DNA of 64,000 nt from Malacoraja senta. Its lineage: Eukaryota. The DNA lies in assembly GCA_038087875.1 (NCBI GenBank), contig CM075988.1:8806001-8870000 (forward strand), written 5' to 3'. Below, one piece after another: positions 10,707-58,105 of the stretch (its first letter is position 1; every line of letters starts with the position of its first letter). The position numbers were made by a program, and so were the translations under genes. Below the pieces are notes generated by a model. That model searched no databases, had not been told where the DNA came from, and saw nothing but the letters and a program-made list of their open reading frames with translations.

Positions 10707-11966
10707 CTAGACTAAGTGGGACCCATTGGGTCCCTGTCACATGGGAGGCCTGGTCCCCCAACGCAACCCGTTCCCCAACGCAATATTCCACCACTCACCC
10801 ATTCCCCCAATGCAATATCCCACCACTCACGCCTATCCCCCTCCCATCAAATCCACCCCTCCCTGCCCCTTCTCCCTCAACTCCCTCTTGCCTATCACCT
10901 CGGACCCCTTCTACACCCCTCCCTAGCCCCCTGCACTCCTCTACCCCACTCCCTCCCTCTCATTCCCCCCCTCCCTCCCTCATCCCTCTCTCCCCTCTCC
11001 CTCCTTCATCCCTCATCAGCGGGTAGACAGCGGGGCTCGGCACTGCCCCCCCTCCCCCCCCCCATCTCCCTCAACCATCCCATCTCCCTCCTCCCCATTT
11101 CCCTCATCATCCTCCCCTCACTCCCATTCCCTGCCCCAGGACCTACCCAGGTCATAGAGCAGCGCCAGGGCCTGGAACTCGGCCTGGTTCTCGTACTCAG
11201 CCCAGCCCTGGCTGTAGGAGGTCACGCACTCGCGGACCTTATCCTCGACGGAGCAGGGCTCGCTGTGCCGGTGGTGGGGTGAGGGTGGTGGGCAGCAAAG
11301 GCAGAGCTGCCCGCAGAGCAGGAAGCGGAGCCTGTGCTGCAGGATGGCGACGGCCGGACGGCCCCCGAGGTGCTGGTACACCTTGACCAGGCCCCGGGCT
11401 TGGGCACGACTCCAGCCCTCAGCTCGGCCGTCGCCTGGGATCCAGTCCAGGCTTCGACTTCATCTCCGGGCTCGTATCTGACCCCGGACCCAGGCCCAGT
11501 CCCCAGGCTCGGCCCGTGGCTCCAGCCCAGGCCCAGTCCCTGGGCTCATTCTTGGCTTCAGTCCGGGCCCAGTCCCCGGGCTCGGCCCGCGGCACCACCC
11601 TCCCCACCAGGTACTCCTCGGGCCGCGGCACCACTCCTTCACCATGGTGACTTCCAGCCGATTGACAGCGGACGCGGTGACGCCCCTTGACAGTCCCGGC
11701 TGCGCCTCTTCCTGAGTGACAGGAGAGGAGACCAATCTGCGTGGCGGCAACTGACAGCATTCTGCGCATGCACGCTTTTTACGATTTTTAAACCTCGATA
11801 ACTTTTACAATACAGCATCCATCGGAACGAAACTTGTTGCACTCGCAACACAGGAGAATGGTAAGGGGGTGAAAAATCACGGCGCTATTGTGTACCGTTT
11901 TTGTGTAAATAGAAAAACCCCGCAAACCGGAAGAGCACAAGATCAGAGTTTTAGTTATGTATTAGA
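10707..11966 (-). mobile_element. Non-autonomous Helitron carrying a captured gene fragment
   Basis: On the minus strand it starts A|TC (11966) and ends with the hairpin GGGACCCA-A-TGGGTCCC (10718-10734), 7 nt, then CTAG (10707-10710); no TSD; the base after CTAG is C rather than the usual T. Confidence 0.75.
11147..11715 (-). pseudogene. Captured, decayed exon of a SAC3/GANP-family gene, most like SAC3D1
   Basis: NRLEV, VKEWCR, YLVGRVV, YQHLGGRPAVAILQHRLRFL, ENQAEFQALALLYDLG in SAC3D1 order, ending at the phase-1 donor G|gtaggt; GC/CpG-rich. Confidence 0.7.
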
Positions 11967-12479
11967 TAGTACTGGCTTAAAGATTTACTGAGTTAACGAT
12001 ATAGCTCTGTGTTAGGATGACTGATCAAACTGGACAAGTTAACTGATGGGCTCCACCTCCAAAGTGAGAAACGTTGCAGAAAGGAGTAAAAGTGTCTGAA
12101 GAAGGGTCTTGACCCGAAGCGTCAGCTTTTCCTTTTCACCAGAGATGCTGCCTGACCCGCTGAGTTTCTCCAGCGGTTTGTGTCTATCTTCGGTTTAAAT
12201 AAGCATCTGCAGTTCCTTCCTACACAAGAGTGGAATAATATTTGAGTTAAAGTAGCAGTACTGTATTAAATGGACACTGACATGGACTCTGAGAAAGACC
12301 AGGGAAGTTTGAGAAAGCTTGAGTATTCTCAGGAGCCATGTCTAAGCAAAGATGTACATTGATGATGGAAATCACCACCACATTCAGCGTGCCAGCATAC
12401 CCTTTGGTCAGTTGAGGAACAGGGGTTTGAAGAATTTCAAGCGTCCTGTGTTTAATTGCTATTTGGAGCAGAACAATGA

Positions 12480-23600: not shown

Positions 23601-23734
23601 TTTTAAACCCCAGCGGGTACAGGCCCAGTGCTGTCAAACGCTCATCATATATTAACCCAGTCATCCTCTGTGACTTACTGGTGCTCCTAATTTGTACCTC
23701 AGAATTTTAAAAGAGCTTCTACTGTCTTTTTCAG

Positions 23735-23877
23735 ATGTGCTCTCACAAGTTCGGCTGGAGATGCCAAGCTCCCAGCGGGTCACCATTGGCGATAGAGTTG
23801 TCTTAACCGGTCAGATTATCACTGCCTCGTCAGATATAAACATCACGTTTGTCAGTTGGAGGAAAGGGAACAGAACA
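23735..23877 (+). CDS. ESAM: ESAM exon: N-terminal half of Ig V domain (first exon after the unlocated signal-peptide exon)
   Basis: Acceptor tttttcag|, donor |gtaagt; phase 1 to 0; encodes VLSQVRLEMPSSQRVTIGDRVVLTGQIITASSDINITFVSWRKGNRT. Confidence 0.85.
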
Positions 23878-24341
23878 GTAAGTTAACAGAGGTTCAAGTG
23901 ATATCACAGCAACAAATATTGAATGTCTAAACTGAGGTGACTTCATACATTTGGAATTTATGTCTCCAATTATTCAGCAACAAAGGACTGTGTTTGCTGC
24001 TGCTTCTTATCGAGTCCACATACAAGATCAGAAGTTGTTCAGCCAGAGCTGAACACACTTCTCGGCATCTGCACAATGGTGTCTGTCTTGTGCTTCTTGT
24101 GCGTGGTGGTGGAAAGATTGGTGGAAACAGGGCTGCGACGTGAATGCTCTTTCCTTGACCCGAGTCTTTGCTAGACCACAGTTAGCGATTCCAGCTTCCA
24201 ATCTCCATTTTACTATTAGAAGGTAATATGTTGAAACATATGCTGAAGTGGATTCTGACAGCAATACAGATATCAAGAATACCAAATGTCTATATTTGTG
24301 TGGTTTGCTCTTGGAAGGGGTTTGGTGTATATGAGAAATTA

Positions 24342-24630
24342 AGTTTAGCTTGGAGCTACAGTGTGGAAACAGGCCCTTCAGCCCACCGAGTCCCTGCCCA
24401 CCAGCGATCCCCGTACACAAACACTGTCCTACACACTAGGGACAATTTACAATTTTACCAAGCCAATTAGCCTACAAACCTGTACATCTTTCAGAGTGTG
24501 GGAGGAAACTGGAGCTCCCGGAGAAAACCCACACGGGTCATGGGGAGAACATACAAACTCCGTACAGGCAGCACCAATAGCTGGATCGAACCCGGGTCTC
24601 TGGCCCTGTAATGCAGCAACTTTATCGCTG
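24342..24630 (-). mobile_element. V-SINE
   Basis: Family consensus, reverse strand. Confidence 0.8.
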
Positions 24631-24697
24631 TTAATGTTAATGAACGGTGAAGAAAAAATCCAATGCAGCTCTAAACTACATTAGAAGTGGCACAAGA

Positions 24698-25481
24698 GCC
24701 AGACACTCTTTAATACAATTTAAAGTACTACATAGATTACATTATTCTAAAACAAAACTAAATAGAATCTTCCCACATATCTCCCCTATCTGTGATAAAT
24801 GTCAACATTTAGAGGCTAACCTAACACACATTCGCAAATTGTATAAAAATCACAAAATTTTGGACGGACATTTTTAGAATAATATCTATAGTTGTCAACA
24901 CTCAATTGGATCCTGATTTAAAATTAATAATACTAGGAATATCAGAACAAAGTCTAACACTTACAACAACCCAAAGAAACTTCATCGACTATAGTATAAT
25001 AACTGGAAAAAAATTCATATTAAAATTTTGGAAAGGTCCTATAACCCCCACAATTAAAATGTGGATTATGGAAATGTCTGAGACCTTACATTTGGAAAGA
25101 ATCAGACTTGTCTTAATGGACAAACAAGAGCTTTTTATCAGAACATGGTCTCCATTTATTGACTATTTGAAGGGACAGACTGGTTCGGCACGAGAACCTG
25201 ACTGAAACTCGAATTAAGGATTAGATGAAAAGTTATATTTTAAAATTTACGAATTCATCTCCAATGTTGTACTTTTAGTAAATTATTCCATTCTTCTTTA
25301 TCATGGTTTTTTTATCCCTTCTTTCTTTTACTCTCTTATTTTCTACCTATATATAAAAAAATAAAAAAATACTAGAAGCAGAGTTAATATCAATCGATAA
25401 TATTAGTAATGTAGGAATGAAATACATGAAATGTTTTCAATATGATATGTACCCGCCTCTAATAAAAATATTATTTAAAAA
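24698..25481 (+). mobile_element. 5'-truncated L1-clade LINE with 15-bp TSD
   Basis: IQFKVLHRLHY...CDKC...LTH (L1 C-terminal Zn-knuckle region), WSPF, AATAAA and A-rich tail; TSD agaa(g/a)tggcacaaga at 24683-24697 and 25482-25496. Confidence 0.85.
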
Positions 25482-26471
25482 AGAAATGGCACAAGAAAGA
25501 CCACAAAATGGTCAACAAACAAGTGAGTAACTGGGCAGCACAGTGATGCTGCAGGTAAGACTGCAGTTGCAGAGCACCAGAGATCCAGCCTTGATTCTGA
25601 CCTCCAGTGCAACCTCGTGATGTTTGTGACTGCAGAAATATCTCCTGGGTGGGAGAGGTTGTTGGCTGGGGGTGAAGTTGGGGGGCGAGAAGGAAGAGAG
25701 ACCATCGGGACTATATTGAATCCTATCGGTGCCCTTTACGTGGTGATTCTTTGCATACATGTGTATTTTATGTAAAACAAAGAATTTCACTGTACCAAGT
25801 ATATGTGACAATAAAATATCAATCAGTCAAGTGGAGCTGGTGGTTGCCAGGGGATCCTTTGCCTCATCATGGTGGGGTTGTCCTGTGTGAGAATGATCCT
25901 AACTCTGTCTCATTTACATTTGTGTTGTAATGCTGCTGCAGTTATGACTTTGCTCTGCACTGGGTGAAGTTAGTTAATACAGTGGCAAGATCAAGTATGT
26001 GGGGGCACAGTAAAACCGATCCCTGTACCTGAAGATTCAGTAGGCTCACATGTCCCTCAGTGGGTTTTCTCCAGGTACTCCGGTTTCCTCCCACACTCCA
26101 AAGATGTGCAGGTTTGTAGGTTACTTGGCTTCGGTAAAATTGTAAATTGTGCCGAGTGTGTAGGATGGTGCTAGTGTATGAGGTGATCACTGGTTGGCAC
26201 GGACTCGGTGAGTCGAAGGGCCTGTTTCTGCACTGCATCCGTAAAGTCTAAACCCTCAGGAGAATTGATCTGAGAATTGAGTCTTTAAATTTCTCTTTAA
26301 ATTATTCCAAATAATTTAAAAGATTAGTACAGTTCTACATCAGTAGTTATTTGCAAATTTGCTTAGTACATTTCTGTTAGTGTTAAAGAATGTACAGATT
26401 TAGTTTGATTGTTTTAGTTAGCATGCTGCTAACTTTCCTTTTCTAAGGTATCTTATGTTTCTTCTTCCCAG

Positions 26472-26667
26472 ATGTTAATTTACACGAACAACAGAATTAT
26501 GCCAACGCCTGACGCCCGTGTTGGTTTCCTGCATTCGAAGCTAAACAGAGATGTGTCTATATATATCAACAACACCACTTTAGCTGATACAGCTCTGTAT
26601 ACTTGCATAATAATTACTACAAATCCTCATGTCTGGAAAGAGAAATCAACCAATCTGGCCGTGCTGA
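26472..26667 (+). CDS. ESAM: ESAM exon: C-terminal half of Ig V domain
   Basis: cttcttcccag| and |gtatgt; phase 0 to 1; MLIYTNN...DVSIYINNTTLADTALYTC...NLAVL contains the V-set DxAxYxC motif. Confidence 0.9.
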
Positions 26668-26844
26668 GTATGTGCAGTCTGCTCTTATTATTACAAACCT
26701 CTGTATAAGGGTTTCAGTCATAGCATTCAGCGCCTCCCCATGGTAATCAGACAGTACTGTCTCTTTCAGGGCACAGGCTGCTAGTTACACTGCGGGTGGT
26801 CACTGACATTGACAAGCAATTGCTTCAATTGACACTTTTGTTTT

Positions 26845-27163
26845 GTTTAGAGATGCAGCGTGGAAACAGGCCCTTCGGCCCACCCCATTCGTGCCGACCA
26901 GCGATCACCCCGTACACAAGCACTATCTTACACACTAGGGAAAATTTACAATCTTTACCAAGGCCAAACGTACAAACGTTTGTACAACTGGCAAATGTAC
27001 AAACCTGTACGTCTTTGGTGTGCGGGTGGAAACTGGAGCATCCGGGGAAAACGTACAAACTACACACGGACAACACTCGTCAGCACAGCACAGCGTTAGG
27101 ACGGAACCCAGGCCTCCGGCGCTGTGAGGCAGCAACTTGACAGCTGCGCCACCATGCCACCCC
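26845..27163 (-). mobile_element. V-SINE; a partial + strand copy also lies at about 26058-26252
   Basis: Family consensus. Confidence 0.8.
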
Positions 27164-27929
27164 TTAGCGCAATGATACTCTATTAAAAAATGTATCAAAC
27201 GCCATTCAGTTTGCAGTAACAAAAATATTTTTTTAGCTGATAAAAAGAACATTGCATTTGTAAAAAACTATTTTCATGGAGTAATTGGATCGAATCCCTT
27301 ACTCGGTTGTAGTGGACAATCAGCAATTATAGATACCGTTCCCGTCCCATGGTCTGATATAAGGAGGGTTATCTGCATAACAATCTGCTCCCTCTGGCTC
27401 CAATCTGATCTAACGAACTACAATTCCCAGGATGCTCTGCACCAGTGGGACTTGGCTAGGGGGTGCACATGTGCTGAGAATAAGGGGAGAGTGGCAGGTT
27501 TCTTGGCAGGACAGACACGATGTGGGGTGCCTGAGAATAGTATATCAGGATTGCTAGAGTGGATCCCATAGTTTTAAGGCAATGATGCCCTGCTCTTCAT
27601 TACGGAGACTCCCTCTGCCATTCTTCGGTTTGGTGTAGGATAATATACCGTGATGCTGGATCATACTGCTAAAGGTACGGTAGAATGCAAATATCCAAAC
27701 GTACCATCACCATCTGACACCACACTGGCAAAGGGCGCAGGGTAAAGCCAAGACAAATTCCCATACAAGTCTTGAACCCAGCCTGACTTGGAGATTTGTC
27801 ATCACTCTCTGAATCCTGAAACTCCGTACTCATGAGCACCATGGGAGAGCCTCATTCCAATGGGCTGCAGTTTCCAGGAGCAAATAGTGAAGGGGAATAC
27901 ATTCTGGCCTTTCCTACAATACCACAATC

Positions 27930-28221
27930 TGAGCAGTAGAGTTGCTACCTTACAGTGCCAGACCCTGACTACAGGTTCGATCCTGACTTTGTGTGCTTGT
28001 CTGTACGGAGTTTGTACGTTCTCCTCGTGACCTGTGTGGGTTTTCTCTGAGATCCTCCCACACTCCAAAGACGTACAGGTTTGTAGGTTAATTGGCTTGG
28101 GATAAATATATCAATGTAAAATTGTCCCTAGTAGTGTTAATGTGCAGGGATCGTTGGTCGGTGCAGACTCGGTGGGGCGAAGGGCCTGTTTCCGTGCTGT
28201 ATATCTAAACTAAACTAAACT
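27930..28221 (+). mobile_element. V-SINE
   Basis: Family consensus with (CTAAA)n tail. Confidence 0.8.
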
Positions 28222-28394
28222 GAACCACAAACTGCAAATTAATTAAAAAGGAACATTTCTTTTGTCCAGAGATTCTTATGTTTTTAAAAAAAGATCAGGG
28301 AGTTCACTCTGAGTATTGTAGCAATTGCAATGTGCTTCACATGTGCTAAGCATCCGTCTCATTTTATTTTGTATTCCCCTTCCCCTCAAAACAG

Positions 28395-28550
28395 TTCCAC
28401 CCTCAACACCAAAATGCTACGTGATCGGAACTCAGTTTATTGGGCATAACGTGACCCTGACCTGCCGCTCGACACGGGGAAAACCAGTCCCCACCTACAC
28501 CTGGCAACGCAATACTCCCAAGCCACAGTTTTTTAACTTCCCAGCCCACA
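28395..28550 (+). CDS. ESAM: ESAM exon: first half of Ig C2 domain
   Basis: aaacag| and |gtgagt; phase 1 to 1; IPPSTPKCYVIGTQFIGHNVTLTCRSTRGKPVPTYTWQR...FFNFPAH matches the CTX-family PPxxPxC/NVTLxC/YxW pattern. Confidence 0.92.
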
Positions 28551-29206
28551 GTGAGTATGAAAACTAAATTGCTTTCATTGATTTATGTCATCTCTCGCTG
28601 AATTCTCATGAATAAACAAGAAGAATCATAAAGATTTCATACCGTGCAACAGAGACTACATTTTCAACGTGCTTCTTGTCTGTAGAGTGCTTTAAGATGT
28701 CCTGATGTTGGGATAAACAGGATATGTGCATTGAGAGAGTCATAGTCATACAGCGTAGAAAGAGGACCTTCAGCCCAACTTGCCCACGCTGATCAAGATG
28801 CCCCCATCTGCACTCCCAGCTCACTAGGCCTATCTCCCTCGCACTCTGTCCAAGCTCACTTTCTCTTATCTAGCCAGAGGCTCCTCATGGTGTCTCCCTC
28901 CTACACCTGGAGTTCCCTTGGTCTCTCTCGCTTGTATTTTCCAAGGTCCCTTTGTCTCTCTTTCTCTTACTCTCCCCCAACTTCTGAGGTCTCTCTTTAC
29001 TCCCCCCTCCCTCCCATACTCTCCCCCGTTCCCCAGGCCTCTCTCTTTCCTGCTCTACCCCATGTTCCGCAGGACTCTTTCCTACTCATTTTGTTGGACC
29101 AAACACTACTCCCTCTGGCTTGATATACTTTGGTGACCCATTTTGGACATTGCCAGGGATGGTGACCTCCCAGTTTAAAATTCTCTGATATAACTGGATC
29201 ATTAAT

Positions 29207-29234
29207 CTGAAGAAGGGTTTCGGCCCGAAACGTT
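29207..29234 (+). ncRNA. Putative minimal hammerhead ribozyme motif in a Penelope-type repeat
   Basis: CUGAAGA-A-GGGU(UUCG)GCCC-GAAA-CGUU. Confidence 0.5.
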
Positions 29235-30255
29235 GCCTATCTCCTTCGCTCCATAGATGCTGCTGCACCCGCTGAGTTTCTCCAGCATTTTTGTGTAATC
29301 TCGAACAGAGACTTGCTTGATGTATTTGCATGTTGGCCTCCATGGAATAGAGGGATAGAAATGTATTGTCTATCAGTGACTATAATAACTCCTCTGAAGT
29401 TAATGGAATTGAAATTCTCTAGAAGTTCAAGTTCACATTTATTACCACATGCAACAATTGAAGCACAGTGGAATTAGACTTACCATGCAGCCATACAATC
29501 AAAAGAGCACAATACACAATAGAATACAACCTGAACATCCACCACAGTGGAATCAACAATCTTCACTGTGGTGGAAGGCAATAACGTTCAGTCAGTCCTC
29601 CTACTTTGTTCATCCGTGGTCGGGGCCATGAACACTCCGCAGTCGCCGCTACGGACAGCCCGATGTATAGACCCTGTCGTCGGGATGCTCGAAACTCCCA
29701 CGTCGGGACGGACGGACAGTCCGCGACTTGGAGGTCCCGAATCGGCCTGAAATGTGCAATACCGGCTTTACACAAACACACTCAAATCACAATGTATGTG
29801 AGCGCACACAGACACAGGCACACACGCACTTGTACACACAAACACATACACACGTACACACAAGTGTACACACACATCCAACTCTATCCCCATAATCCCT
29901 TTTTTTTTTTAAATCTCGAACTCTTTGTCCACTTTCTTTTCATTTTTTCAATGTTACAATTGAACCATGTTGCACCAGCATTTCAGGCAGTGAATCTCCT
30001 CATCAGATCTTAAAAGTGGTTAAAAAATAGTTCTTCATTTTTTTTTAATCCTTTTACATTCACCAGATCCATTTCTTCTGGTTAGTCATACTTTGGCAAC
30101 TGAAAAACATCTCAATTTGTGGGCTGTCAAAACCATTTCTTGGCTCGAAATTGATAGCACAAGGTTATAATTTAATATGCTAGATAATTTGATTTCTGCG
30201 AATAAAATATGAAAGGATTGAAAATTTAGCATGAAAATTTGTGACTGGTTCTGTT

Positions 30256-33200
30256 AAACATAGAAACATAGAAAATAGGTGCAGGAGGAGGCCATTTGGC
30301 CCTTTGAGCCAGCACCGCCATTCATTGTGATCATGGCTGATCGTCCCCTATCAACAACCCGTGCCTGCCTTCTTCCCATATCCCTTGACTCCACTAGCCC
30401 CTAGAGATCTATCTAACACTCTCCGAAATCCATCCAGTGATTTGGCCTCCACTGCCCTCTGTGGCAGGGAATTCCATAAATTCACAACTCTCTGGGTGAA
30501 AAAGTTTTTTCTCACCTCAGTCTTAAATGACCTCCCCTTTATTCTAAGACTGTGGCCCCCTGGTTCTGGACTCGCCCAACATTGGGAACATTTTTCCTGC
30601 TTGTCCAGTCCTTTTATAATTTTATATGTTTCTATAAGAACCCCCTCATCCTTCTAAACTCCAGTGAATACAAGCCTAGTCTTTTCAATCTTTCCTCAAT
30701 TGACAGTCCCGCCATCCCAGGGATCAATCTCGTGAACCTACGCTGCACTGCCTCAATCACAATACAATACAATACAATACAATACAATTTATTTGTTGTC
30801 ATTTGAACCTCATTGAGGTTCAAACAAAATTTGGTTTCTGCAGTCAAGGATGTCCTTCCTCAAATTAGGAGACGAAAAACTGTACACAATACTCCAGATG
30901 TGGTCTCACCAGAGCCCTATACAACTGCAGAAGAAACTCTTTACTCCTATACTGAAATCCTCTTGTTATGAAGGCCAACATTCCATTAGCTTTTTTCACT
31001 GCCTGCTGTACCTGCACGCCAACTTTCAGTGACCGGTGTACAAGGACACCCAGGTCTCGCTGTACCTCCCCCTTACCTAACCTAACCCCATTGAGATAAT
31101 AATCTGCCCCTTTGTTTTTGCTGCCAAAGTGGATAACTCACATTTATCTATATTATACTGCATCTGCCACGCATCTGCCCATTCACTCAACCTGTCCAGG
31201 TCACCCTGCAACTTCCTAACATCCTCTTCATAGTTCACACTGCCACCCAGCTTTGTGTCATCTGCAAACTTGCTAGTGTTGCTCCTAATTCCCTCTTCCA
31301 AATCATTAATATATATGGCAAACAGTTGCGGCCCCAACACCGAGCCTTGCGGCACTCCACTCGCCACTGCCTGCCATTCTGAAAAGGACCCATTCACTCC
31401 TACTCTTTGCTTCCAGTCTGCCAACCAATTTTCTATCCATGTCAACACCCTACTCCCAATACCATGTGCTCTAATTTTAGTCACCAGTCTCCCATGCGGG
31501 ACCTTATCAAAGGCTTTCTGAAAGTCTAGAAACACTACATCCACTGGCACCCCTTCATCCATTTTATTTGTCACATCCTCAAAAAATTCCAGAAGATTAG
31601 GCAAGCATGATTTCCCTTTCATAAATCCATGTTGACTTGGACTAATCCTTTTACCGCTATCCAAATGCCCCATTATTACCTCTTTAATAATTGACTCCAG
31701 CATCTTTCCCACCACCGAAGTCAGGCTAACTGGTCTGTAATTCCCCATTTTCTCTCTCTCCTTTCTTGAAAAGTGGGATAACATTAGCTATCCTCCAATC
31801 CACAGGAACTGATCCTGAATCTATTGAACATTGGAAAATGATCACCAATGCGTCCACTATTTCTAGAGCCACCTCTCTGAGGACCCTGGGATGCAGACCA
31901 TCAGGCCCAGGGGATTTATCATCCTTCAGTCCCATTAGCCTACCCAATACTATTTCTCGCCTAATGAATATTTCTTTCAGTTCCTCTACCCCCTTAGATC
32001 CTCTGTCCTCCAGTACATCTGGGAGATTGTTTGTGTCTTCCTTAGTGAAGACAAATCCGAAGTACCTATTCAACTCTTCTGCCATTTCCTTGTTGCCCAT
32101 AATAATTTCACCCGTGTCTGCCTTCAAGGGACCTACATTTGACTTTGCTACTCTTTTTCCCTTAACATATCTAAAGAAGCTTTTACTGTCCTTCTTTATA
32201 TTCCTGGCCAGCTTCCCCTCATACTTCATCTTTTCAGCCCGTATTGCCCGTTTTGTTTCCTTCTGTTGTACTATGAAAGTTTCCCAATCCTCTGGCTTCC
32301 GGCTACTCTTTGCTGTGTTATACATCTTTTCTTTTAGTTTTATTCTATCCCTAACTTCTCTTATCAGCCACAGTTGCCTCCTACTCCCCTTAGAATCTTT
32401 CTTCCTTTTTGGAATGAAATGATCCTGCGTCTCCCGGATTATGCCCAGAAATTCCTGCCATTGCTGTTCCACCGTCATTCCTGCTAGGATCCCTTTCCAG
32501 TCTACTTTGGCCAGCTCCCCTCTCATGCCTTCATAGTCCCCTTTGTTCAACTGCATCACTGCCACTTCCGATTTAACGTTCTCCTTTTCAAATTGCAGGT
32601 TAAAACTAATCATATTATGATCACTACCTCCAAGCGGTTCCTTTACCTCGAGTTCTCTTATCATATCTGGTTCATTGGACAACACTAAATCCAGAATTGC
32701 CTTTTCTCTGGTCGGCTCCATTACAAGCTGCTCTAAGAATCCATCTCGGAGGCATTCTACAAACTCTCTTTCTTGGGGTCCTGAACCAACCTGATTTTCC
32801 CAGTCTACCTGCATATTGAAATCCCCCATCACCATAGTGGCATTACCTTTGTTACATGCCAGTTTTAACTCCTGCTGCAACTTACACCCTACATCTGGGC
32901 TACTATTTGGGGGTCTGTAAATAACACCAATTAGTGTCTTCTTGCCTTTACAATTCCTCAACTCAATCCACAGTGACTCTACCTCGTCAGTCCCTATGTC
33001 TTCCCTCGCAAGGGACTGAATTCCATCCCTCACCAGCAGAGCTACCCCCCCTCCTCTGCCCACCTGCCTGTCCTTTCTATAGGATGTATAACCCTGAATA
33101 TTAAGTTCCCAGGCCCGATTCTCCTGCAGCCACGTCTCAGTAATTCCCACAATGTCATATCTACCAACCTCTAACTGAGCCTCAAGCTCATCTACTTTAC

Positions 33201-33817
33201 TTCTTATACTTCGCGCATTCATATACAATACTTTTAATTCCTTACGCATCTCACCTTTCACATCGATCCCTATTACACTTGGCCATACTCTCCTATCCCT
33301 TTGTGAGCTTCCTTTCCTGTTAATTCTGGGGTCATTAACCCTCCCTTTACTCTCTTTCCCTTTAACTCCATCCTCGACTATCCCATTTGACACCCCACCC
33401 CCATTATTCAGTTTAAAACCACCCGTGTAGCAGTGGCAAACCTGCCTGCCAGAATGCTGGTCCCCCACCTGTTAAGATGCAATCCGTCCCTTTTGTACAG
33501 TTCCCCCTTACTCCAAAACAGATCCCAGTGATCTAAGAATCTAAATCCCTGCCCCTTGCACCAGTTCCTCAGCCACACATTCAGGTCCCGTATCTCCCTG
33601 TTCCTGCTCTCGCCTGCACGAGGAACTGGAAGCAAACCGGAGATAACAACCCTGGAGGTCCTGCTTTTCAGCATTTTTCCGAGCTCTCTAAAGTCACGCT
33701 GCAGAATATTCATCCCCTTCTTTCCGACATCGTTTGTGCCGACATGCACTACCACTTCCGGCTGTTCACCTTCGCCCTTGAGGATTTTCTGCACTCTGTC
33801 CGTGACGTCCTGGATCC
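30256..33817 (-). mobile_element. CR1 LINE, 5'-truncated within ORF1; ORF2 complete in extent (APE + RT) but frameshifted
   Basis: ORF1 esterase motifs VVVHVGTND and DGLHLN (33408-33794); ORF2 YMNARS, ITETW, GDFN, SDH, SPGPDG, QGSVLGP, FADDTK; (TTCTATG)n tail; in the ESAM intron. Confidence 0.95.
30762..30846 (-). mobile_element. Short retroposon 3' end inserted in the CR1 ORF2
   Basis: (ATTGT)n tail with AATAAA interrupting LRKDIL|VIEAVQRRF. Confidence 0.6.
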
Positions 33818-36139
33818 TTCGTGTGTCTGAAATGTAGAGCCCTTCGTGTGTCTGTAATGTAGAGCCCTGAAGATGTATAATAGTGTCTAAGATTGTGCAT
33901 CTCGCACTGAACGCTGCTCCAAGATTTTCATCAGATTTTCATCAGTTTGAAGAAGGGTCGCGACCCGAAACGTCACCCATTCCTTCTCTCCAGAGATGCT
34001 GCCTGTCCCGCTGAGTTACTCCAGCATTCTGTGCCTATCTTTGGTTTAAACCAGCATCTGCAGTTCCTTCCTGGGCACTAAGATTTCCATTGTTGGTTTG
34101 GGTAATTGACATCAACCGTGTCCCTTGCACTGAACCAGGTTTTCAATGCATCTGTGAAGACTGAGAGACACAAGGGAATTTCATGGAGCAAATCCAGGCA
34201 ACGGGAACTGGGAACTTGTCTTGGACAGGCCCTCTCCAATTCTTTTACTTACTGATTCTCCTCCAGATTTACCACTATCTCCCCCCACCATCCCATATCA
34301 CCCAAAACCAAAGTATTTTTTCTTCTTGGAGACGAGTGGACAAAGGGCCCCAGCAATGTTATGGTTGCACATCTGCATTTGGTGACATTGTGGATGCCAG
34401 CAGTGGACTGGGCGGGCCTGTAAGCTCTGCCATTTTGATCATAGATTCTCTGCTGATGTTGGCAATTAAGATTTGATGGAACCTAGAACAGTACAGCACA
34501 AGAACTGGCCCTTCAAACATGATGGCAAATGTATAACTAATCTACCTGCGCGTAATCCATATTCCTCCATTGACTCCATCTCCATGCAGCTATCCAAAAG
34601 CCTTTTCAAAGCCACTATCGTATCTGCCTCAATCATCAACCTTGACAGTGTGTTCCAGGCATACCACCCTCTGTGTAAAATAATTACCCTGCACATCTCC
34701 TTTAAACTTTGTCCCCCTCCCTCTTCACCTTAAATCTATGGCCTGTTTCAGCCATGTCAATGTAAATTATCCATGTTCAGGAAAAGGCAGTTGTAATCCA
34801 TCATAGCATCCAACTTAGACATCCAACGTGAATCGATCAAGCATGCCAGGTACTGTAGGTACAGAAACACAGGGGGGGAGAAAATGATAAGGCCAATCAA
34901 AGGGGGAAAGATAAAACCACAAGTAACTGGGTTGCATCTATTCAGCTTTCTTTACATAGCTCATTTGTATCTCTTTGGGTTATCGCCAAACCAGACCAGA
35001 TAATGGAAGTCCCAAACACTACAAAACATAGACACAGACACAGGAGTAACTCAGAAGGTCAGGCAGCATCTCTGGAGCACATAGATAGGAGACATGTCAG
35101 GTTGAGACCCTTGTTGACAGCATTTTGTGTCTATCTGTGGGATACACTGGCACATACAGTTCACTTTTATTGTATCCCAAATTGTACAGGTTGCTGCAAA
35201 CTATTCTTTATGTAAAGGTGAGTGGTAGAATCTGAAGAGAGTTGATGGGAATATGGAGAAAATAAAAAAAACACAGGATTAATGTTGGATGAGGGAAAAT
35301 GGGTGGTGAGGGTTGGCATGGGCTGAATGGCTCTCTATTATCATCCAGTCATTTCTACTTGTCTTACATAAATTACACTTTTTCGGTCGAGTTTTACTAC
35401 CTGTGAACCATTTTTAAAGAGCAGCCTTTGTTGTTATGTAGGAAAAGTGGGAACAAATTTGTGCACTGAAATCTCCCAAAATAACATTCTGATTATATAC
35501 AGCCACATCTCCATTTGCAAAAGGGACACATTCCTTGAAAACATTTCATTAAACGACATTTTGTAAATCCAAAAAGCAGTGCAAAAGGCATTGTGAGTGT
35601 TTCAATTTATCCCAGTGAACAGATAATGACATGCAAAAAATAGATTTGTAAATCAAAGTTATTTTTCCAAAAATGTGGATGGTATTTGAGCGAAATTTCA
35701 AATATTAAATATTCATATATTGATAAATATATGTATACTTTTTTTTGCTTTGGAGTTCAATCAACAATGTTAATCCTATAATTCTGATATTAGTTTATTT
35801 GTTCCTGGTCAGGCTGAATGTTTGCTTTGATATTAACCCAGATCTGAACCAGTACCAAGGTGTGGGAATATTTATGTCCGCGTTATGAAACAAAGTTAAT
35901 CTCCAGGTGTTCAAACAGGATTTTGTGTTGAGCAGAAGCACTGAAAGTGACTGATTTTGTAGCCAGAATACAAACAGGGTTCATTGCTTATGTTGAGATC
36001 TTGCTTTGATGGTCCAGGCATCTGACCCCACCATTGCAAAGCTAAATATAAAATGGGAGATTATTTAATAGTAGGATCAGGAATTTTATAAATTGGAGCA
36101 ACTGAAAATATTTTTGGAATCCTCTGAATGACAAAGATT

Positions 36140-36484
36140 TTAGGATGTTCCCGATGTTGGTGGAGTCCAGAACCAGGGGTCACACGGTTTAAGAATAAGG
36201 GGTAGGCCATTTAGGACTGAGATGAGGAAAACCTTTTACACCCAGAGAGTTGTGAATCTGTGGAATTCTCTGCCACAGAAGACAGTGGAGGCCAATTCAC
36301 TGGATGTTTTCAAGAGGGAGTTAATGTAGATTTAGTTCTTAGGGCTAAAGGAATCAAGGGATATGGGGAGAAAGCAGGAATGGGGTACTGATTTTAGATG
36401 ATCAACCATGATCATATTGAATGGCAGCGCTAGCTCGAAGGGCCGAAAGGCCTATTCCTGCACCTATTTTTCTATGTTTCTATG
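36140..36484 (+). mobile_element. CR1 3' fragment; others at about 4670-4905(-), 15685-15950(-), 23240-23668(-), 34470-34740(-), 38627-39080(+), 40190-40512(-), 43700-44110(+), 44280-44990(+, old), 46855-47115(-), 49260-49500(-), 50980-51300(-), 60130-60474(+)
   Basis: Shared ESRTRGH/RVVNLWNSLP coding remnants and conserved CR1 3' UTR. Confidence 0.8.
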
Positions 36485-36567
36485 CACATTTAAATAGAAA
36501 ATGTAAAAAAAAACCTGTAGATGCAAGAAATCTGAAATAAGGACAGAAAATATTGGAAACATTTCGC

Positions 36568-36890
36568 AGGGCAACACAATGGCGCAGTGGTACAGTTGCT
36601 GCCTTACAGTGCCAGAGACTCAGGTTCGATCCTAACTACAGGTGCTGTCTGTACTGATTTAGTATGCTCTCCTTGTGACCGCATAGGTTTTCTCCGTATA
36701 CTCCAGTTTCCTCCCACATCCCCAAAACGTACAGGTTCGTAGGTTAATTGGTTAATTGGCTTCTGTAAATTCTAAATTGTCCCTGCTACGTAAGAGTGTG
36801 CTAGTGTATAGGATAATGGCTGGTTGGCGCAGACTTGTGGGGCCGAAGGGCCTGTTTCCACACTGAATCTCTAAAGTAAAGTCTAAAGTC
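36568..36890 (+). mobile_element. V-SINE
   Basis: Family consensus. Confidence 0.85.
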
Positions 36891-37482
36891 AGGCAGAAAA
36901 TCAGAGTTTCAGGTTGAAAACCTCATAATTATTGGGGCAGAGAAAGAGTTGTAATTTGCAGAGAAGGGGGGGGGTGGGGGAGGATGTAAAGGAGACAAAG
37001 GGAATATCCGTGCTGGTTCAGGGACAGGGTGACTGTCGGGATGGGTTGCAAATATGATGAGCATATATCACCATCAGCTCTTACAAGATCATCATTTCAA
37101 GATATCTTGCCCATTTAATAGTCCCAGGTCTTGCCAGAGAATGTTTTGGTATTGAGATGTTGCGTAATCAGGTTATATTGAAGAAAGGTCATATCCCTAG
37201 ACCTGAATAGGAATTCTTAATTTCAAGGCAAACATTCATATCATGGATAGACACAGAATGCTGGAGTAACTCAGCGGGACAGGCAGCATGTTTGGAGAGA
37301 AGGAATGGGTGTATCATGGACTTTAACTAAGTGGAAAATGGAAAAGAGCGTCTTTTCTGATCTAATTCTAGTGGGTATGAATGAAAAGGCACTTGGGATG
37401 TATTTGTGACTTATCCAGCAGGTTGCCGACCTTTGAGTCTTAATTGCATTTTAACTTTCTTAATATAATGTTTATTTTCTAG

Positions 37483-37605
37483 ACTCTCAAATGGGAACTC
37501 TGATACTGAAGAACCTCACCAAGGAGATGTCTGGATTATACATTTGCAGGTCCATAAATTCAATAGGGAATGCATCATGCTCAATACAGATGGATGTGAT
37601 AACTT
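37483..37605 (+). CDS. ESAM: ESAM exon: second half of Ig C2 domain (not in the ORF track)
   Basis: ttttctag| and |gtaagt; phase 1 to 1; NSQMGTLILKNLTKEMSGLYICRSINSIGNASCSIQMDVIT. Confidence 0.92.
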
Positions 37606-39687
37606 GTAAGTACAGCAGTGTATGTGAGCCGTTCCTCGTTTGTAATCATGCATTGTCTTTCTGCTGACTGGTTAGCACGCAACAAAAACACAAGCTTTTC
37701 ACTGTACCTCGTTACACGTAACAATAAACTAAACAGATGCATTTTGTTGATCCAAGTCTACTGATGTTAGTGATCAATTCTGTGGACATATTTTATGCCC
37801 TCTCACGTTGTGTAACCCATTCATTCATGCCATGAGTATTTATTACCGAACAGACCGCTTCTTCTTCTTTTTCTTTCGTGTGGCGTGCACAGCCTAAAGT
37901 TGTTGGACAACTTGTTCTATTTGATCTTCCGTTTGTGCACGTCGAGTTGATTGCATTAGTCGAAACACGTGAAGGTTGCAATCTTCCACCCCACCGAACA
38001 GACTTCTCAATAATGTTATCATCATTGTAGTGGCAGATTATTATATCGTTCAAGGAATTTTTCCTCTAGCCACTATGATTGAAGACAGGGGTGAGGAGAT
38101 AGCATGCGAGCTCTCCACGAGACATTCAAAGCCATCCAGAGATAAATCTTCAAAACACAGTCTCTTAATTAATAGTTTCTTTATGGTCGTAGTAAAAACA
38201 GTGAGATTTTAATCCAAGCTTCTTGTATGAGTACATTTTGATCTTACTCGTAGTCAAACTCGTGCATGGTGGAAAGCTGTGCCTTCCCCACGCTTCTTCA
38301 AAACTAAAAACTAAAACTAATAGCGCATCTGCGCGAGAATCCCAGACTCAAACACGCCTACGTAATAAATCCCACCCACATAATTACAGGTAGATAACAT
38401 TTAAAGGTAACTGGTTATAGTTATAAGATACTGAGTTAAACTCAATGGCTACTACAATCATGATTGTTATCATCCCCAAGCCATGCCTTGACCCCAAAAT
38501 TTATCTCCCAAATTCCGAATGAATAAATGAATGAATGAATGAATGAATACTTTATTGTCATTATAACATGTAAACACGTACAACGAAATTAGAAATGCCA
38601 ACCAGTCAGTGCATTTTCTTAACGCAAAAGACTGGGCAATGCAATGCTCTGGGCTTGTATTTGCTGGAGTTTGGAAGGACGAGGGGAGACTCATTGAAAC
38701 TTAATGAACAGTGAAAGGCCTTGATAGAGTGGATGTGGAAAGGATGTTTGCACTAGTGGGAGAATCTAGGACTAGAGGGCACAGCCTCAGAATAAAAGGA
38801 CGTATCTTTAGAAAGGAGATGAAGAGGGATTTATTTAGTCAGAAGGTGGCAAATCTCTGGAATCCATTGCCACAGACGGCTGCGGAGGCCAAGTCATTGC
38901 ATTACCCAGTCATTAGGTATTTTTGAAATGAAGTTGGCATGTTCTTGATTAGTAAGAGTGTCAAAGGTTAAGGGAGAAAGCAAGAGAATGGGGCTGAGAG
39001 GGAAAATAGAGCAGCCACGATTGAGTGGTAGAGTAGACACGTTGGGCTGAATGGCCTAATTCTGCTCCTATGACTTATGAAGGAATCTGAAGGCTATGGA
39101 ATAGAATTGTAGCCATCAGGGATTAGGGATGTATTTCTACCTCACCCATAGTCCTTCTCACCTCCCACAGCTCCCCCAGGATGAGAGGCTGTAGTGTAGG
39201 GAACGGAAATGCCACACTTGACAATGTTGGGTATCGTGCTCAATCGGAAATGTGAAGATTCATTGAATAACATTGCAGATAGTCATTTGCAGGTTTCTTA
39301 CACCCAAAGAAGCCTCGAGTACAAATCCAATTTTCAGCAGATGAAATGTGTAGGAAGGAACTACTGATGCAGGTTCGAACTGAAGATAGACACAAAATGT
39401 TGGAGAAACTCAGCGGGACAGGCAGCATCTCTGGAGACATGGAATGGGTGCCATTTCAGATCTCGTCCTTTCTTCAACGTCTGAAGAAGGGTCTCGACCT
39501 GAAACGTCACCCATTACTTCTCTCCAGAGTTGCTGCCTGTCCCGCTGAGTTGCTCCAAGCATTTTGTGTCCAATTTTCAGCATCTGTCCTCTCTTGTTAA
39601 AACTCCTGTTTCTCTTGTTTTCCTTTGCGATTTGAGTATCTGTCACGAAGGAATGATTCTTCTTCAACTTGTTTCTACTTTCCACAG

Positions 39688-39828
39688 CAAATAATGCAGG
39701 ACTCTTCGCTGGGGCTATTATTGGGGCATTCTTGGGATATGTTTGCTGGTCGCTATCATTGCCTTCTTCTGCATCTATCAAAGGAAGAGAAAATTTGAAA
39801 AGGAGGAGGATCTGGCTAATGAGATAAA
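39688..39828 (+). CDS. ESAM: ESAM exon: transmembrane and juxtamembrane; apparent 1-bp deletion near 39734-39736
   Basis: tttccacag| and |gtaagt; SNNAGLFAGAIIGAFL then, in a shifted frame, ICLLVAIIAFFCIYQRKRKFEKEEDLANEIK; 141 bp where the flanking phases need 142. Confidence 0.88.
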
Positions 39829-39859
39829 GTAAGTATCCGAGTTTCCATGAAGTTCGTGG

Positions 39860-40166
39860 AGTTTAGTTTAGGTTAGTTTCAGAGATACCGCGTGGAAACA
39901 GGCCCTTAGGCCACCAAGTCAACGCCGACCAGCGATCCCGAACACTACGTCTATCCTACATACTAGGGATCATTTACAGAAGCCAATTACCTACAAACCT
40001 GCACATCTTTGGGATGTAGGATGAAACCGGAGCACCCAGGGAAAACCCATGCGGACACAAGGAGAACATACAAACTCCATACAGACAGCACCCAGTAGTC
40101 AGGATCGAACCTGGGGTCACTGGCACTGTAAAGCAGCCACTCTACTGTTGCGCCACTGTGCTGCCC
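39860..40166 (-). mobile_element. V-SINE
   Basis: Family consensus, reverse strand. Confidence 0.85.
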
Positions 40167-41164
40167 CATTTGATGCATTGGATCACAACATAGAGACAAT
40201 AGGTGCAGGAGTAGGCCATTCACCCCTTCGAGCCAGCACCGCCCTTCAATGTGATCATGGCTGATCATCCCCAATCAGTACCCCCGTTCCTGCCTTCTCC
40301 CCACATCCCCTGACTCCGCTATCTTTAAGAGCCCTATTTAGCTCTCTCTTGAAAGTATCCAGAGAACTGGCCTCCACCGCCCTCTGAGGCAGAGAATTCC
40401 ACAGACTCACCCCTCTACGTGAGAAAAAGTGTTTCGTCGTCTCCGTTCTAAATGGCTTACTCCTTATTCTTAAGCTGTGGCCCCTGGTTCTGGACTTCCC
40501 CAACATCGGGAACATACTGTATCTATATACATGAACTGGAAACAGCGTTTGTCACTTCAATAAGCAATTCACTTGAATACAACAGCAGTTTTCTTGATGT
40601 CACCTATAGAGCTAATGACATCTTGTCATCACTATGAGATCAAACAAGCAGCAATTTTTCTGGGTTGGGGAATGTAGGATGGGCTCGTGAGAACAATTTG
40701 TAAAGACAGTAAAAAGAAAACAGATAGCAAATATGTTTGGCTACTTAATTTTCAATTATGGAGGATTACAGAACTCAACACCCATTATAGTCTTTGAAAC
40801 ATCTGTTGACCCACTCATAACTGCCTGTCATATTTATTTGTACACACTAGAGCTCGCCATACACTTTAACCTTACTGATTTCCTACTAATAACGTCTTGG
40901 TTACAGTAAAACATTCACCCAAGACTTATTTCATTTCCTGCAAAAATGTTGGTATGTTAACTCATTCGACCAATATCCACCCAGAGTGAAGAAAATTGTA
41001 TCACATTCAGTCTAACATCTGAATAAGATTCTGTGGCCTGAGTTCTGAGTTGCGCTGAATGGTAATGTTTTATTTTGATGTTATTATTGTTTAGTCTTTG
41101 GGTGGAAACTACGATGGGCTGTTCCTGAACAACATTGAAAACTGTGACCTGATTTTCTTTTTGG

Positions 41165-41440
41165 CAAGTGTGCATGTGCAAATGCGAGTGCGAGCGTGAC
41201 CGGGTAGGTGCGAGTAAGTGCAAATACGTGTAAACTTGTGTGTGGGTGAGTGAACGTGTGTGTGAGTGTGGATGTGAATGTGCAGATGTGAGTGTGCGAG
41301 CATAAACAAGTAGGTGCGAGTGTGTAAGTGTCAATGTGTGTGTGTGTGTGAGTGAGTGTGTGATTGAATGAGTGCGTGTGAGTGAGTGAGCGTGTGTGAG
41401 TGAGTGAATGAGTGAGGGAGTGTGAGAATGTGTTGTGTTC
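41165..41440. repeat. Degenerate (GT)/(GAGT) low-complexity tract; smaller CA/TA tracts at about 15950-16171 and 29805-29878
   Basis: Direct inspection. Confidence 0.85.
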
Positions 41441-41805
41441 ATATGTCCCATGGCGTTATTTCACCAGCCATTCCCACAACCTCATGAGAGTAAAACAAGG
41501 GTCAGTTTTCTGGTGTAAAAATATGTTAGATTAAAACAACCAAGGGATATTTACAGAGAGTACAAAGAACGTCGTTTCACATTGAGCAAAAAAGTAAGAT
41601 GCGAGTCCCAGAGATCATAAGACATAATGGAAGTTTTGTATAGCATGCTGTACTTTCTCACCTTGCTCCATCTTGTTAACACATTACACATTATAGTCAA
41701 CGTTTGCGATCATGATGAGCTAAAACAATTTAAAGCAATAATCCTCTCTGTCCCTACTTGGATTGTTATAAATTGCACTGATTTGAACACTTGTTTTGTT
41801 CACAG

Positions 41806-42202
41806 AGAGGATACCCAGGCACCAGGGGAAACGTATGGATAAGAATGGGAGCTCTGACATCATCTCCAAAAATGGCACCCTGTCTTCAGTGAATAGCACA
41901 ATGCGCGCCTACAAGCCGTATCCCCTCCAAGCCACCGTCGGACACTGCATCAACTATCACCGCAATGAACGTCAGTCACGCCGGAAGTGGCAAACGTCCA
42001 AAAAGTGCCCAAAGACCAGCTACTGCACCGACTGTCAACACTCACCACTCTAGTCCTTTCCCCCAAGTGGCAGAACGGAGCTCGGCAGCAGACCCCGGAA
42101 CAGGAGCCCACGTTGCCCCCAATGTCCTCATCAAATCTTGCCAGGATGGGGGCGGTGCCAGTCATGGTGCCAGCTCAGAGTCAATTCGGATCACTGGTGT
42201 AG
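41806..42202 (+). CDS. ESAM: ESAM last coding exon: cytoplasmic tail with PDZ-binding end; three apparent +1 frameshifts
   Basis: ttcacag|; EDTQAP / [14 protein letters not shown] / KPPSDTAST / [25 protein letters not shown]. Nearly identical to recalled mammalian ESAM motifs ([35 protein letters not shown]). Confidence 0.92.
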
Positions 42203-57124: not shown

Positions 57125-57161
57125 GAAGGCATATCTTGGAAAAGGATTATCAGACCGTACG

Positions 57162-58105
57162 GTGGATGTTATGACAGCAGCCTGGAGGAATAGTACCCAG
57201 AAGCAGTACATTTCCTATATAAAGAAATGGGAGGTGTTTTGTTCAGGAAAGAATATTGCATATAACACAGTAGAAATTTCAGATGTAATAGAGTTTCTTT
57301 CAACTCTACACTATGAATTGAAATTAAGTTATAGTGCAATTAATACTGCACGAAGTGCACTCTCTGCATATTTAAGCAGTGAATCAGAACAAACTCCAAT
57401 TGGAGAACATCCTTGGGCCTGTAGGTTTATGAAAGGAATTTTCAACTCTAATCCTCCCAGACCCAGGTATACAGAAATTTGGAATGTAAAAGATGTACTG
57501 ATGTTCCTAAGGAGTTGGAATCCAGTTGAAACCCTGTCATTATCCAAAATTACCATGAAATTGGTTATGCTCATGGCATTAGTTTCAGCGCAGAGAGTTC
57601 AAACATTACAGAAACTCAGAATTGATAGAATGAAAGTAGGGCAAAATGCCGTGACATTCTATGTCTATGATTTACTGAAGCAAAGTAGACCTGGGTCCAC
57701 AGGATGCAAGTTGGAATTTTTAGCATATCCTACAGATTCACGACTGTGTGTAGTAACATATGTGAAATGTTACATAGAAACAACAAAAGTTTTAAGAGGC
57801 GCCGAATTGGCATTTTTTATTAGTCATAAAAAGCCTCATAAGAAAGTGTCAACACAAACAATTTCACGATGGTTGAAACAGGTGTTGATATATTCAGGTA
57901 TTGATACTGATAAATTTAAATCTCATTCCACGAGGGCGGCATCAACATCAGCGGCCAGGGATTCAGCGTGCCAATAGACCTTATTCTCGCGGCCGCAGGA
58001 TGGGCAAGTGAACAGATGTTTCACAAGTATTACCACAAGGAGATTAAAGATCTCAGAGGGTTTGGTGATGCCGTGCTGGATACAGTATTAAATCCCCCAT
58101 TATAA
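57162..58105 (+). pseudogene. DIRS tyrosine recombinase, one frameshift near 57963
   Basis: SAQR (catalytic Arg) and HSTR (HxxR), then in a shifted frame ILAAAGWASEQMFHKYY (W and catalytic Tyr region), stop at 58103-58105. Confidence 0.9.

What the first reader, a model, noticed from the sequence alone, without database searches (positions are those of the whole stretch)
10707..11966. Helitron that appears to have captured a SAC3D1-like coding exon with its splice donor
Seen: minus-strand element bounded by A|TC and a 17-nt hairpin plus CTAG, with a GC/CpG-rich core reading NRLEV-x-VKEWCR...YLVGRVV...YQHLGGRPAVAILQHRLRFL...ENQAEFQALALLYDLG, then G|gtaggt and purine-rich intron-like sequence. 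Known: these termini define Helitrons, which capture gene fragments. SAC3D1 as I recall it has HRLEV, AVKEYSR and QPAFQGLFLLYNLG in this order. Inferred: DNA-level capture (donor retained) of a SAC3D1 exon, now deleted and frameshifted, lying antisense to ESAM upstream of its Ig exons. I know vertebrate Helitron gene capture mainly from bats, so a chondrichthyan case would be notable.
Basis: partly seen in the sequence, partly recalled or inferred. Interest (0 to 1): 0.8.

Follow-up and report, generated by a model that had tools for sequence, protein, structure and literature searches.

The report
Skate Helitrons spreading host first exons
This is one of hundreds of copies of a rolling-circle transposon in a skate genome that carries a broken piece of the host gene SAC3D1, while sister versions with the same ends carry pieces of ALG13 and CPSF3; the pieces were likely copied straight from chromosomal DNA and are likely decaying without function, a process already described in bats and frogs.

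Summary
10707-11966 (minus strand) is a non-autonomous canonical Helitron in intron 1 of ESAM, antisense to it. Its GC-rich core matches skate SAC3D1 (75% and 70% protein identity) and stops at a GT donor where all 97 genome matches stop. The cargo is no one-off: 877 first-look candidates genome-wide; the 39 other scored copies are 75-88% identical, share the termini and are decaying near-neutrally (pN/pS 0.8).

The same 5' and 3' arms also enclose the first exons of ALG13 (506 candidates) and CPSF3 (1753). For ALG13 I found the parental gene: upstream DNA, exon 1, donor and about 210 nt of intron were taken together, which shows DNA-level capture. None of 78 copies keeps an old 3' end before its cargo, which fits internal capture better than simple end bypass.

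Limits: the SAC3D1 parent was not found in this assembly, so its intron match is untested; this copy ends CTAG|C, not CTAG|T; only about 100 nt after the donor are candidate intron. First-exon capture is known from bats and Xenopus; my searches found no cartilaginous-fish case.

The parts
10707..11966 (-). Non-autonomous canonical Helitron, SAC3D1-carrying subfamily, 1260 bp, in ESAM intron 1, antisense to ESAM
11717..11966 (-). 5' arm starting TC, shared by the SAC3D1-, ALG13- and CPSF3-carrying subfamilies
   Evidence: covered in 62-100% of the loci of each group over the first 240 nt; 3630 candidates
11661..11716 (-). End of the 5' arm, internally deleted in this copy; cargoes join in or right after this stretch
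11147..11660 (-). Captured SAC3D1 coding fragment, from about residue 26 to 284 of the skate protein; lacks the start codon region; several deletions and frameshifts; includes the skate-type Gly-Ala-Glu-Pro repeat region (about 11385-11590) and the conserved core 11147-11381
11048..11146 (-). GT donor (GTAGGT) and about 100 nt found almost only in SAC3D1-type copies; inferred start of SAC3D1 intron 1
   Evidence: parent not available to confirm
11017..11047 (-). 31-nt remnant of a second GC-rich insert that is about 165 nt long in sister copies; source not identified
10829..11016 (-). Purine-rich low-complexity body of the element, variable in length, partly matched by other subfamilies
10707..10828 (-). 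3' arm shared by all subfamilies
10718..10734 (-). Subterminal hairpin, 7-bp stem, 11 nt before the CTAG end; a second family form has an 8-bp stem with paired changes
23734..42199 (+). Host gene ESAM, coding exons after the signal-peptide exon; exon 1 lies about 50 kb before the window start

Best explanation
The element is a non-coding Helitron copy that carries a broken fragment of the skate SAC3D1 gene, likely copied once from chromosomal DNA into an ancestral element and then likely spread to hundreds of sites by a Rep/helicase supplied by an autonomous Helitron. Shown: termini, dispersed family, identity of the cargo, sister subfamilies with ALG13 and CPSF3 first exons between the same arms, and, for ALG13, capture of upstream DNA, exon, donor and intron in one block. 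Inferred: the capture happened elsewhere, in a skate ancestor after the split from sawfish and electric rays; the insert most likely entered the inside of an existing element by template switching or gap repair at short microhomologies, using open GC-rich gene starts as template (about 55% for this step); the ESAM copy is a passenger whose donor points the wrong way to be used by ESAM transcripts; the cargo has decayed without selection on protein.
For: Family: 877 candidates, 40 scored, the 39 others 75-88% identical on many contigs; CTAG|T in 31 of 33 unique CTAG ends, A before TCTAT in 23 of 28; empty paralogous sites without target duplication for 2 of 13 full-length copies tested. Cargo: the only 4 database hits are batoid SAC3D1, skates first; all 97 genome matches end at or before residue 286 of 446; GTAGGT follows in 25 of 30 mappable copies. 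Dating: the column-majority peptide of 36 copies matches Rhinoraja 53/56, Amblyraja 51/56, Pristis 43/52, Narcine 41/53, and the cargo holds the repeat insertion that only the two skate proteins have. Decay: non-CpG change 7.2, 6.4, 7.8% at codon positions 1-3; pN/pS 0.8; CpG sites 14-19%. Sister cargoes. ALG13 parent with three exons in frame and no Helitron end within 2.5 kb; junction overlaps of 1-3 nt. No old 3' end between 5' arm and cargo in 0 of 30, 0 of 22 and 0 of 26 copies. 5'-arm tree groups by cargo: 7 changes against 33.5 shuffled. Intact RepHel frames up to 1766 aa exist and share the last 30 nt or so.
Against: The SAC3D1 parent was not found with the C-terminal protein part or a 5' motif, so the intron match and the exon boundary are inferred. 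The CPSF3 parent was not found either, and its name rests on 14 of 14 identical residues at E 0.03-0.05. This copy has C after CTAG. The RepHel elements examined do not share the 5' arm body (score 27, shuffles up to 40), so the true partner is not identified. Junction overlaps of 1-3 nt can be chance. SAC3D1-type arms are not shown to be one clade (2 changes). No orthologous empty site was seen.
Confidence: 0.85

Rival explanations
1. Same capture, other route: end bypass or composite transposition. A 5' end sitting upstream of the exon read through host DNA and finished at the 3' end of a second copy downstream; the donor-site elements were later lost.
For: Shown experimentally for the bat element (PMC4778049, passages) and seen at 3 parental loci in bats, one with both ends (PMC4224331 section 15). 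The young autonomous copies here have a second 3' end 1.0-1.6 kb after the first, so bypass does occur in this genome. Head-to-tail junctions are common (8 of 51 5' ends).
Against: No relic 3' end before the cargo in 78 copies; no Helitron end near the ALG13 parent; three different cargoes join within the same short stretch of the 5' arm, which would need the same truncation each time.
Confidence: 0.35
2. RNA route: an unspliced or partly spliced SAC3D1 transcript was reverse-transcribed by a LINE into a Helitron and then amplified.
For: Retrocopies nested in Helitrons are described in bats (PMC4224331, passages); LINE frames are present in this window. The SAC3D1 cargo lacks its promoter and start, as a 5'-truncated copy would.
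Against: Nothing past residue 286 in any of 97 matches, no poly(A) or duplication around the cargo, donor retained. The ALG13 cargo lies antisense and includes about 330 nt upstream of the start codon.
Confidence: 0.04
3. The cargo is kept because it helps: captured GC-rich gene starts give the element promoter-like open chromatin or a working splice donor, so cargo-bearing lineages out-replicated empty ones.
For: 22 of 29 loci picked by the 5' arm alone carry one of the three first exons (12 SAC3D1, 5 ALG13, 5 CPSF3). In bats, elements with promoters or first exons reach higher copy numbers (PMC4224331) and the NUBPL donor works as an exon trap (PMC4778049).
Against: The SAC3D1 cargo has no promoter or native start; CpG sites decay about twice as fast as others; short derivatives that lost most of the cargo also moved (L053); the 29 loci are biased towards arms like this copy's.
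Confidence: 0.2
4. The stretch is a decayed SAC3D1 paralogue or the true locus, with chance Helitron-like ends.
For: The true SAC3D1 locus was not found elsewhere in the assembly.
Against: Hundreds of dispersed copies with the same ends; location inside ESAM intron 1; no N-terminal or C-terminal part nearby.
Confidence: 0.01

Closest known systems
HelibatN3 (NUBPL capture) and related Helibat families of vespertilionid bats (PMC4224331, PMC4778049; passages and one section seen)
   Same: Non-autonomous TC...CTAG Helitron; hairpin 11 nt before the end; first exon and splice donor of a host gene amplified to about a thousand copies; bias to 5' ends of genes; cargo in either orientation; usually no Helitron at the parental gene (26 cases in bats).
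   Different: Cartilaginous fish. The SAC3D1 cargo is about 260 codons of coding sequence without promoter or start, whereas HelibatN3 has the promoter and six codons. No exon trapping shown here.
Heli1Xen1 of Xenopus laevis (PMC12001565; passages seen)
   Same: Canonical Helitron family carrying coding fragments, 17 of 19 from the 5' end of genes.
   Different: There 19 fragments in 64 insertions, at most 17 copies each, in a young family; here three cargoes with hundreds to over a thousand candidates each, about 9% diverged.
SAC3D1 (SAC3/GANP family, PF03399)
   Same: Residues about 26-284 of the skate protein, 75% identical over the core.
   Different: A fragment: no start, no C-terminal 160 residues, deletions and frameshifts, near-neutral change; not a working gene.

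Membership tests
Canonical Helitron (HLE1), non-autonomous | 5' end begins with TC | tested here: met
   definition from PMC11417382
Canonical Helitron (HLE1), non-autonomous | 3' end CTRR | tested here: met
   CTAG here and in 33 of 43 unique 3' ends
Canonical Helitron (HLE1), non-autonomous | Short hairpin just before the 3' end | tested here: met
   7-bp stem 11 nt from the end (alone not significant, z -1.15); conserved in the family, with a second form showing paired changes
Canonical Helitron (HLE1), non-autonomous | Insertion between A and T without target duplication | tested here: met
   Family level: A|T in 8 of 13 full-length copies, empty paralogous sites for 2. This copy is A|C, and its own empty site was not seen.
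Canonical Helitron (HLE1), non-autonomous | Dispersed multi-copy family with fixed ends | tested here: met
Canonical Helitron (HLE1), non-autonomous | Cognate autonomous RepHel element with matching ends | tested here: inconclusive
   112 PF14214 matches; 1766-aa frame with Helitron_like_N and PIF1 and no endonuclease domain hit; shares the last 30 nt or so and a short 5' motif, not the 5' arm
Canonical Helitron (HLE1), non-autonomous | Mobilisation by RepHel in cells | not testable with these tools
   needs a transposition assay
DNA-level gene capture (transduplication) of SAC3D1 | Cargo is homologous to a host gene and lies between the termini | tested here: met
DNA-level gene capture (transduplication) of SAC3D1 | Cargo continues into the parent's intron | tested here: inconclusive
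   Parent not found; donor kept in 25 of 30 copies; met for the sister cargo ALG13
Functional SAC3D1 gene copy | Complete open frame under purifying selection | tested here: not met
Helentron / HLE2 | Subterminal inverted repeats and insertion between T and T | tested here: not met
   Ends are TC and CTAG; T|T in only 2 of 13

The most novel reading that the evidence does not exclude
One skate Helitron lineage acted as a cassette: it repeatedly took in the GC-rich first exons of housekeeping genes (SAC3D1, ALG13, CPSF3 and at least two unidentified inserts) at the same internal site between unchanged arms, by template switching rather than end bypass, so that most of its several thousand copies carry a host first exon with a splice donor and some have become promoters or exon traps of skate genes.
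Probability: 0.3. Interest if true: 0.72.

Novelty: new member of a known kind. Interest (0 to 1): 0.5.

Why it matters
It extends Helitron gene capture to cartilaginous fishes, with the same bias to first exons as in bats and frogs and at high copy number per cargo. How Helitrons capture genes is an open question (PMC4224331 section 15 lists competing models). Here several cargoes sit between the same arms, intermediate copies survive, and one parental gene is in hand, so junctions can be compared across skate genomes to test end bypass against internal capture. In practice, hundreds of SAC3D1, ALG13 and CPSF3 exon copies can disturb gene annotation, read mapping and marker design in skates. 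The copy in ESAM itself is most likely inert.

Tried and rejected
SAC3D1 parent: Pfam family search gave three Helitron copies only; the full protein gave copies only; the C-terminal 160 residues gave nothing; a 5' motif gave nothing. Not found with these queries, which does not show absence. CPSF3 parent: the Beta-Casp search gave one exon that I read from recall as CPSF2-like; the motif search gave three Helitron copies with a fuller exon. PDB search with the SAC3D1 cargo: nothing meaningful. Pfam and PDB with the degenerate ALG13 and CPSF3 cargo frames: nothing. Second GC-rich insert: two hits that look spurious, a repeat protein and a 5292-aa protein; only one of six frames was searched. 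Insert of L066: no hit, one frame searched. Sequencing runs: no RNA holder listed. Laying four runs showed the family in all four, no joint across the element and none at the donor among the 15 joints shown (492 not shown); the RNA reads cannot be assigned to this copy. The microsatellite matches for L033 in the empty-site test were rejected as artefacts. The earlier-findings index held nothing. No structure prediction was run, since the cargo is a broken fragment of a known family.

Full report
Observation. The minus strand from 11966 to 10707 begins A|TC and ends with a 17-nt palindrome, 11 nt, and CTAG; the next base is C. The quoted peptides are present in two frames, and G|GTAGGT follows LYDLG at 11147|11146. 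The core has GC 0.69 against 0.43 for the window. The hairpin folds as a 7-bp stem but is no better than shuffles by itself (z -1.15).

It is a family. The core DNA gave 877 first-look candidates in the own genome; 40 were scored, and the 39 others are 75-88% identical on many contigs. Their alignments to the element stop at the same two ends. Among the unique ends that my patterns caught in the fetched loci, 33 of 43 3' ends are CTAG and 31 of these 33 are followed by T; 28 of 51 5' ends begin TCTAT and 23 of these follow an A; 8 are head-to-tail junctions and 15 are degenerate. Joining the flanks of 13 full-length copies found contiguous empty sites in repeats for two, with no target duplication; a third match was a microsatellite artefact. 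These are the features given for canonical Helitrons (PMC11417382, passages). [quoted passage not shown] These young autonomous elements share the last 30 nt or so and a short 5' motif with the family but not its 5' arm, so the partner that moved the family is not identified. Candidate counts are not copy numbers.

The cargo is SAC3D1. Pfam SAC3_GANP matches this copy weakly (E 2.5e-4, 21 bits, cut-off 27) and three sister copies above the cut-off. The protein search returned four hits, all SAC3D1: Rhinoraja 75%, Amblyraja 70%, Pristis 57%, Narcine 54%. The two skate proteins have a repeat insertion of about 100 residues that the other two lack, and the cargo contains it. With the 446-aa protein as query, all 97 genome matches end at or before residue 286, the place of the donor; GTAGGT follows in 25 of 30 copies where the site could be mapped, and 6 of 36 could not. 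Taking this place as the end of exon 1 is an inference. The cargo starts near residue 26, so promoter and start codon were not taken. A longer copy keeps HLEVATSVAVKEWRRPA and about 1.7 kb between donor and 3' end; the window copy lacks several blocks that this copy has.

Age and selection. Over a 56-codon core in 36 distinct copies, the commonest residues match Rhinoraja at 53 of 56, Amblyraja 51 of 56, Pristis 43 of 52 and Narcine 41 of 53, which places the capture in the skate line. Copies differ from the column majority by a median 8.7%. Non-CpG change is 7.2, 6.4 and 7.8% at the three codon positions, pN/pS is 0.8, CpG sites change at 14-19%, 10 copies have a stop in this core and 13 keep it open. 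This is near-neutral decay with a methylation-like signature. I have no rate to turn it into years.

The parent. Coverage by subfamily shows that only about 11146-11048 is specific to SAC3D1-type copies; then come a remnant of a second GC-rich insert, a purine-rich body, and a 3' arm common to all.

Other cargoes. The 5' arm alone gave 3630 candidates. Of the 29 other loci fetched, 12 carry SAC3D1 sequence, 5 an ALG13 piece, 5 a CPSF3 piece (two of these are near-duplicates) and 7 something else or a truncation. The ALG13 piece gave 506 candidates and the CPSF3 piece 1753; 22 of 29 and 24 of 28 fetched loci have the same 5' arm. The CPSF3 peptide matches solved CPSF3 chains at 14 of 14 residues (E 0.03-0.05, all four hits) and is followed in most copies by a GTGAGT donor; its parent was not found. 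The ALG13 parent was found on contig C7: exon 1 at about 5,532,565, exon 2 3.2 kb on and exon 3 7.4 kb on, with compatible splice phases and PF04101 matches for exons 1 and 3 (the gene name is recalled from the motif and family). Helitron copies match it at 67-79% (six copies compared) over up to 630 nt: about 330 nt upstream, exon 1, the donor and about 210 nt of intron, antisense to the element; no Helitron end lies within 2.5 kb. This is direct evidence of DNA-level capture by this family.

Mechanism. A tree of 68 5' arms groups them by cargo (7 changes against 33.5 shuffled; ALG13 one supported clade, SAC3D1 2 changes, CPSF3 3), with short inner and long end branches, which suggests captures in quick succession followed by bursts. 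All cargoes lie between the same arms and join within one short stretch of the 5' arm. None of 78 copies has an old 3' end between arm and cargo. The ALG13 junctions overlap arm and parent by 3 nt at one end and 1-3 nt at the other. Simple end bypass predicts a relic terminus and new 3' ends; neither is seen. Internal capture by template switching or gap repair fits best, but composite transposition between two copies that were later lost cannot be excluded: it is documented in bats (PMC4224331 section 15), bypass is shown experimentally (PMC4778049, passages), and the autonomous elements here show a second 3' end downstream of the first. I give internal capture about 55%.

The site. ESAM coding exons map at 23734-42199 on the plus strand and its signal-peptide exon about 50 kb before the window, so the element is in a 74-kb first intron, antisense; its donor cannot serve ESAM transcripts. 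Four public runs from four coded organisms all hold the family; one has a contig across the 3' junction with 2 differences in 441 nt and may be the same species; no empty site and no splice from the donor appeared among the joints shown.

Literature. First-exon and promoter capture with high amplification is known from bats (12,382 copies with host sequence; NUBPL to about a thousand; PMC4224331, passages) and from Xenopus laevis (19 fragments in 64 insertions; PMC12001565, passages). Helitron with SAC3D1 gave 0 papers; Helitron with ALG13, CPSF3 or SAC3D1 gave nothing relevant in 6 listed; four searches pairing Helitron with skate, shark or chondrichthyan terms showed no report of capture in their listings (top 20-25 of each seen); the little skate genome paper has no 'helitron' in its main text (PMC10115646, term search). 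Supplements, Repbase and Dfam were not seen.

Verdict. A real, well-supported case of a known process in a lineage where I found no report of it. The single copy is ordinary; the family, with three named cargoes between fixed arms and one parent in hand, is what deserves follow-up. Interest 0.5.

Noticed in passing
L066, L068 (G000:C5134 and C5), interiors: Another GC-rich insert, antisense, ending at a GTGAGT donor whose intron side is the end of the 5' arm used by SAC3D1-type copies; its last 70 nt also remain in many CPSF3-type copies. It may be the older cargo that the others replaced. Gene not identified.
   Followed up: partly
L064, L069 interiors: Two further GC-rich interiors between the same arms, not identified.
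   Followed up: no
L002:1250-1420, L011:2075-2246; remnant at window 11017-11047: Second GC-rich insert of about 165 nt after the SAC3D1 donor region in many copies; source unknown.
   Followed up: partly
window 11640-11648 and sister copies: Most SAC3D1-type copies have an ATG in a GCCATGG context where the parent protein reads ATGAAV; it seems to have arisen by a deletion in the master copy.
   Followed up: no
G000:C3619, C4719, C5355, C2 near 33.34 Mb: Young autonomous Helitrons with open frames of 1302-1766 aa in head-to-tail arrays, each with a second 3' end 1.0-1.6 kb after the first.
   Followed up: partly
5' ends of many family copies: TCTA-type microsatellites directly before the 5' end, and head-to-tail junctions that lack one TCTA unit.
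   Followed up: no
5' arm of SAC3D1-type copies (L002, L010, L012): A long internal palindrome that is deleted in the window copy; the arm also has CCAAT-like and GCGCATGCGC motifs (names recalled, not tested).
   Followed up: no
window 31077-33938, minus strand: LINE with esterase-like ORF1, endonuclease and reverse transcriptase frames inside an ESAM intron.
   Followed up: no
window 57111-57977 (+) and 58606-59472 (-): Tyrosine-recombinase-like frame and a separate reverse transcriptase frame; possibly a DIRS- or Crypton-type element (class recalled).
   Followed up: no
window 39681-39850 and 41827-42199: ESAM exons show apparent frameshifts against the two skate proteins, possibly assembly errors.
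   Followed up: no
window 12094-12226: A very abundant short repeat next to the element, the deepest feature in all four runs laid.
   Followed up: no
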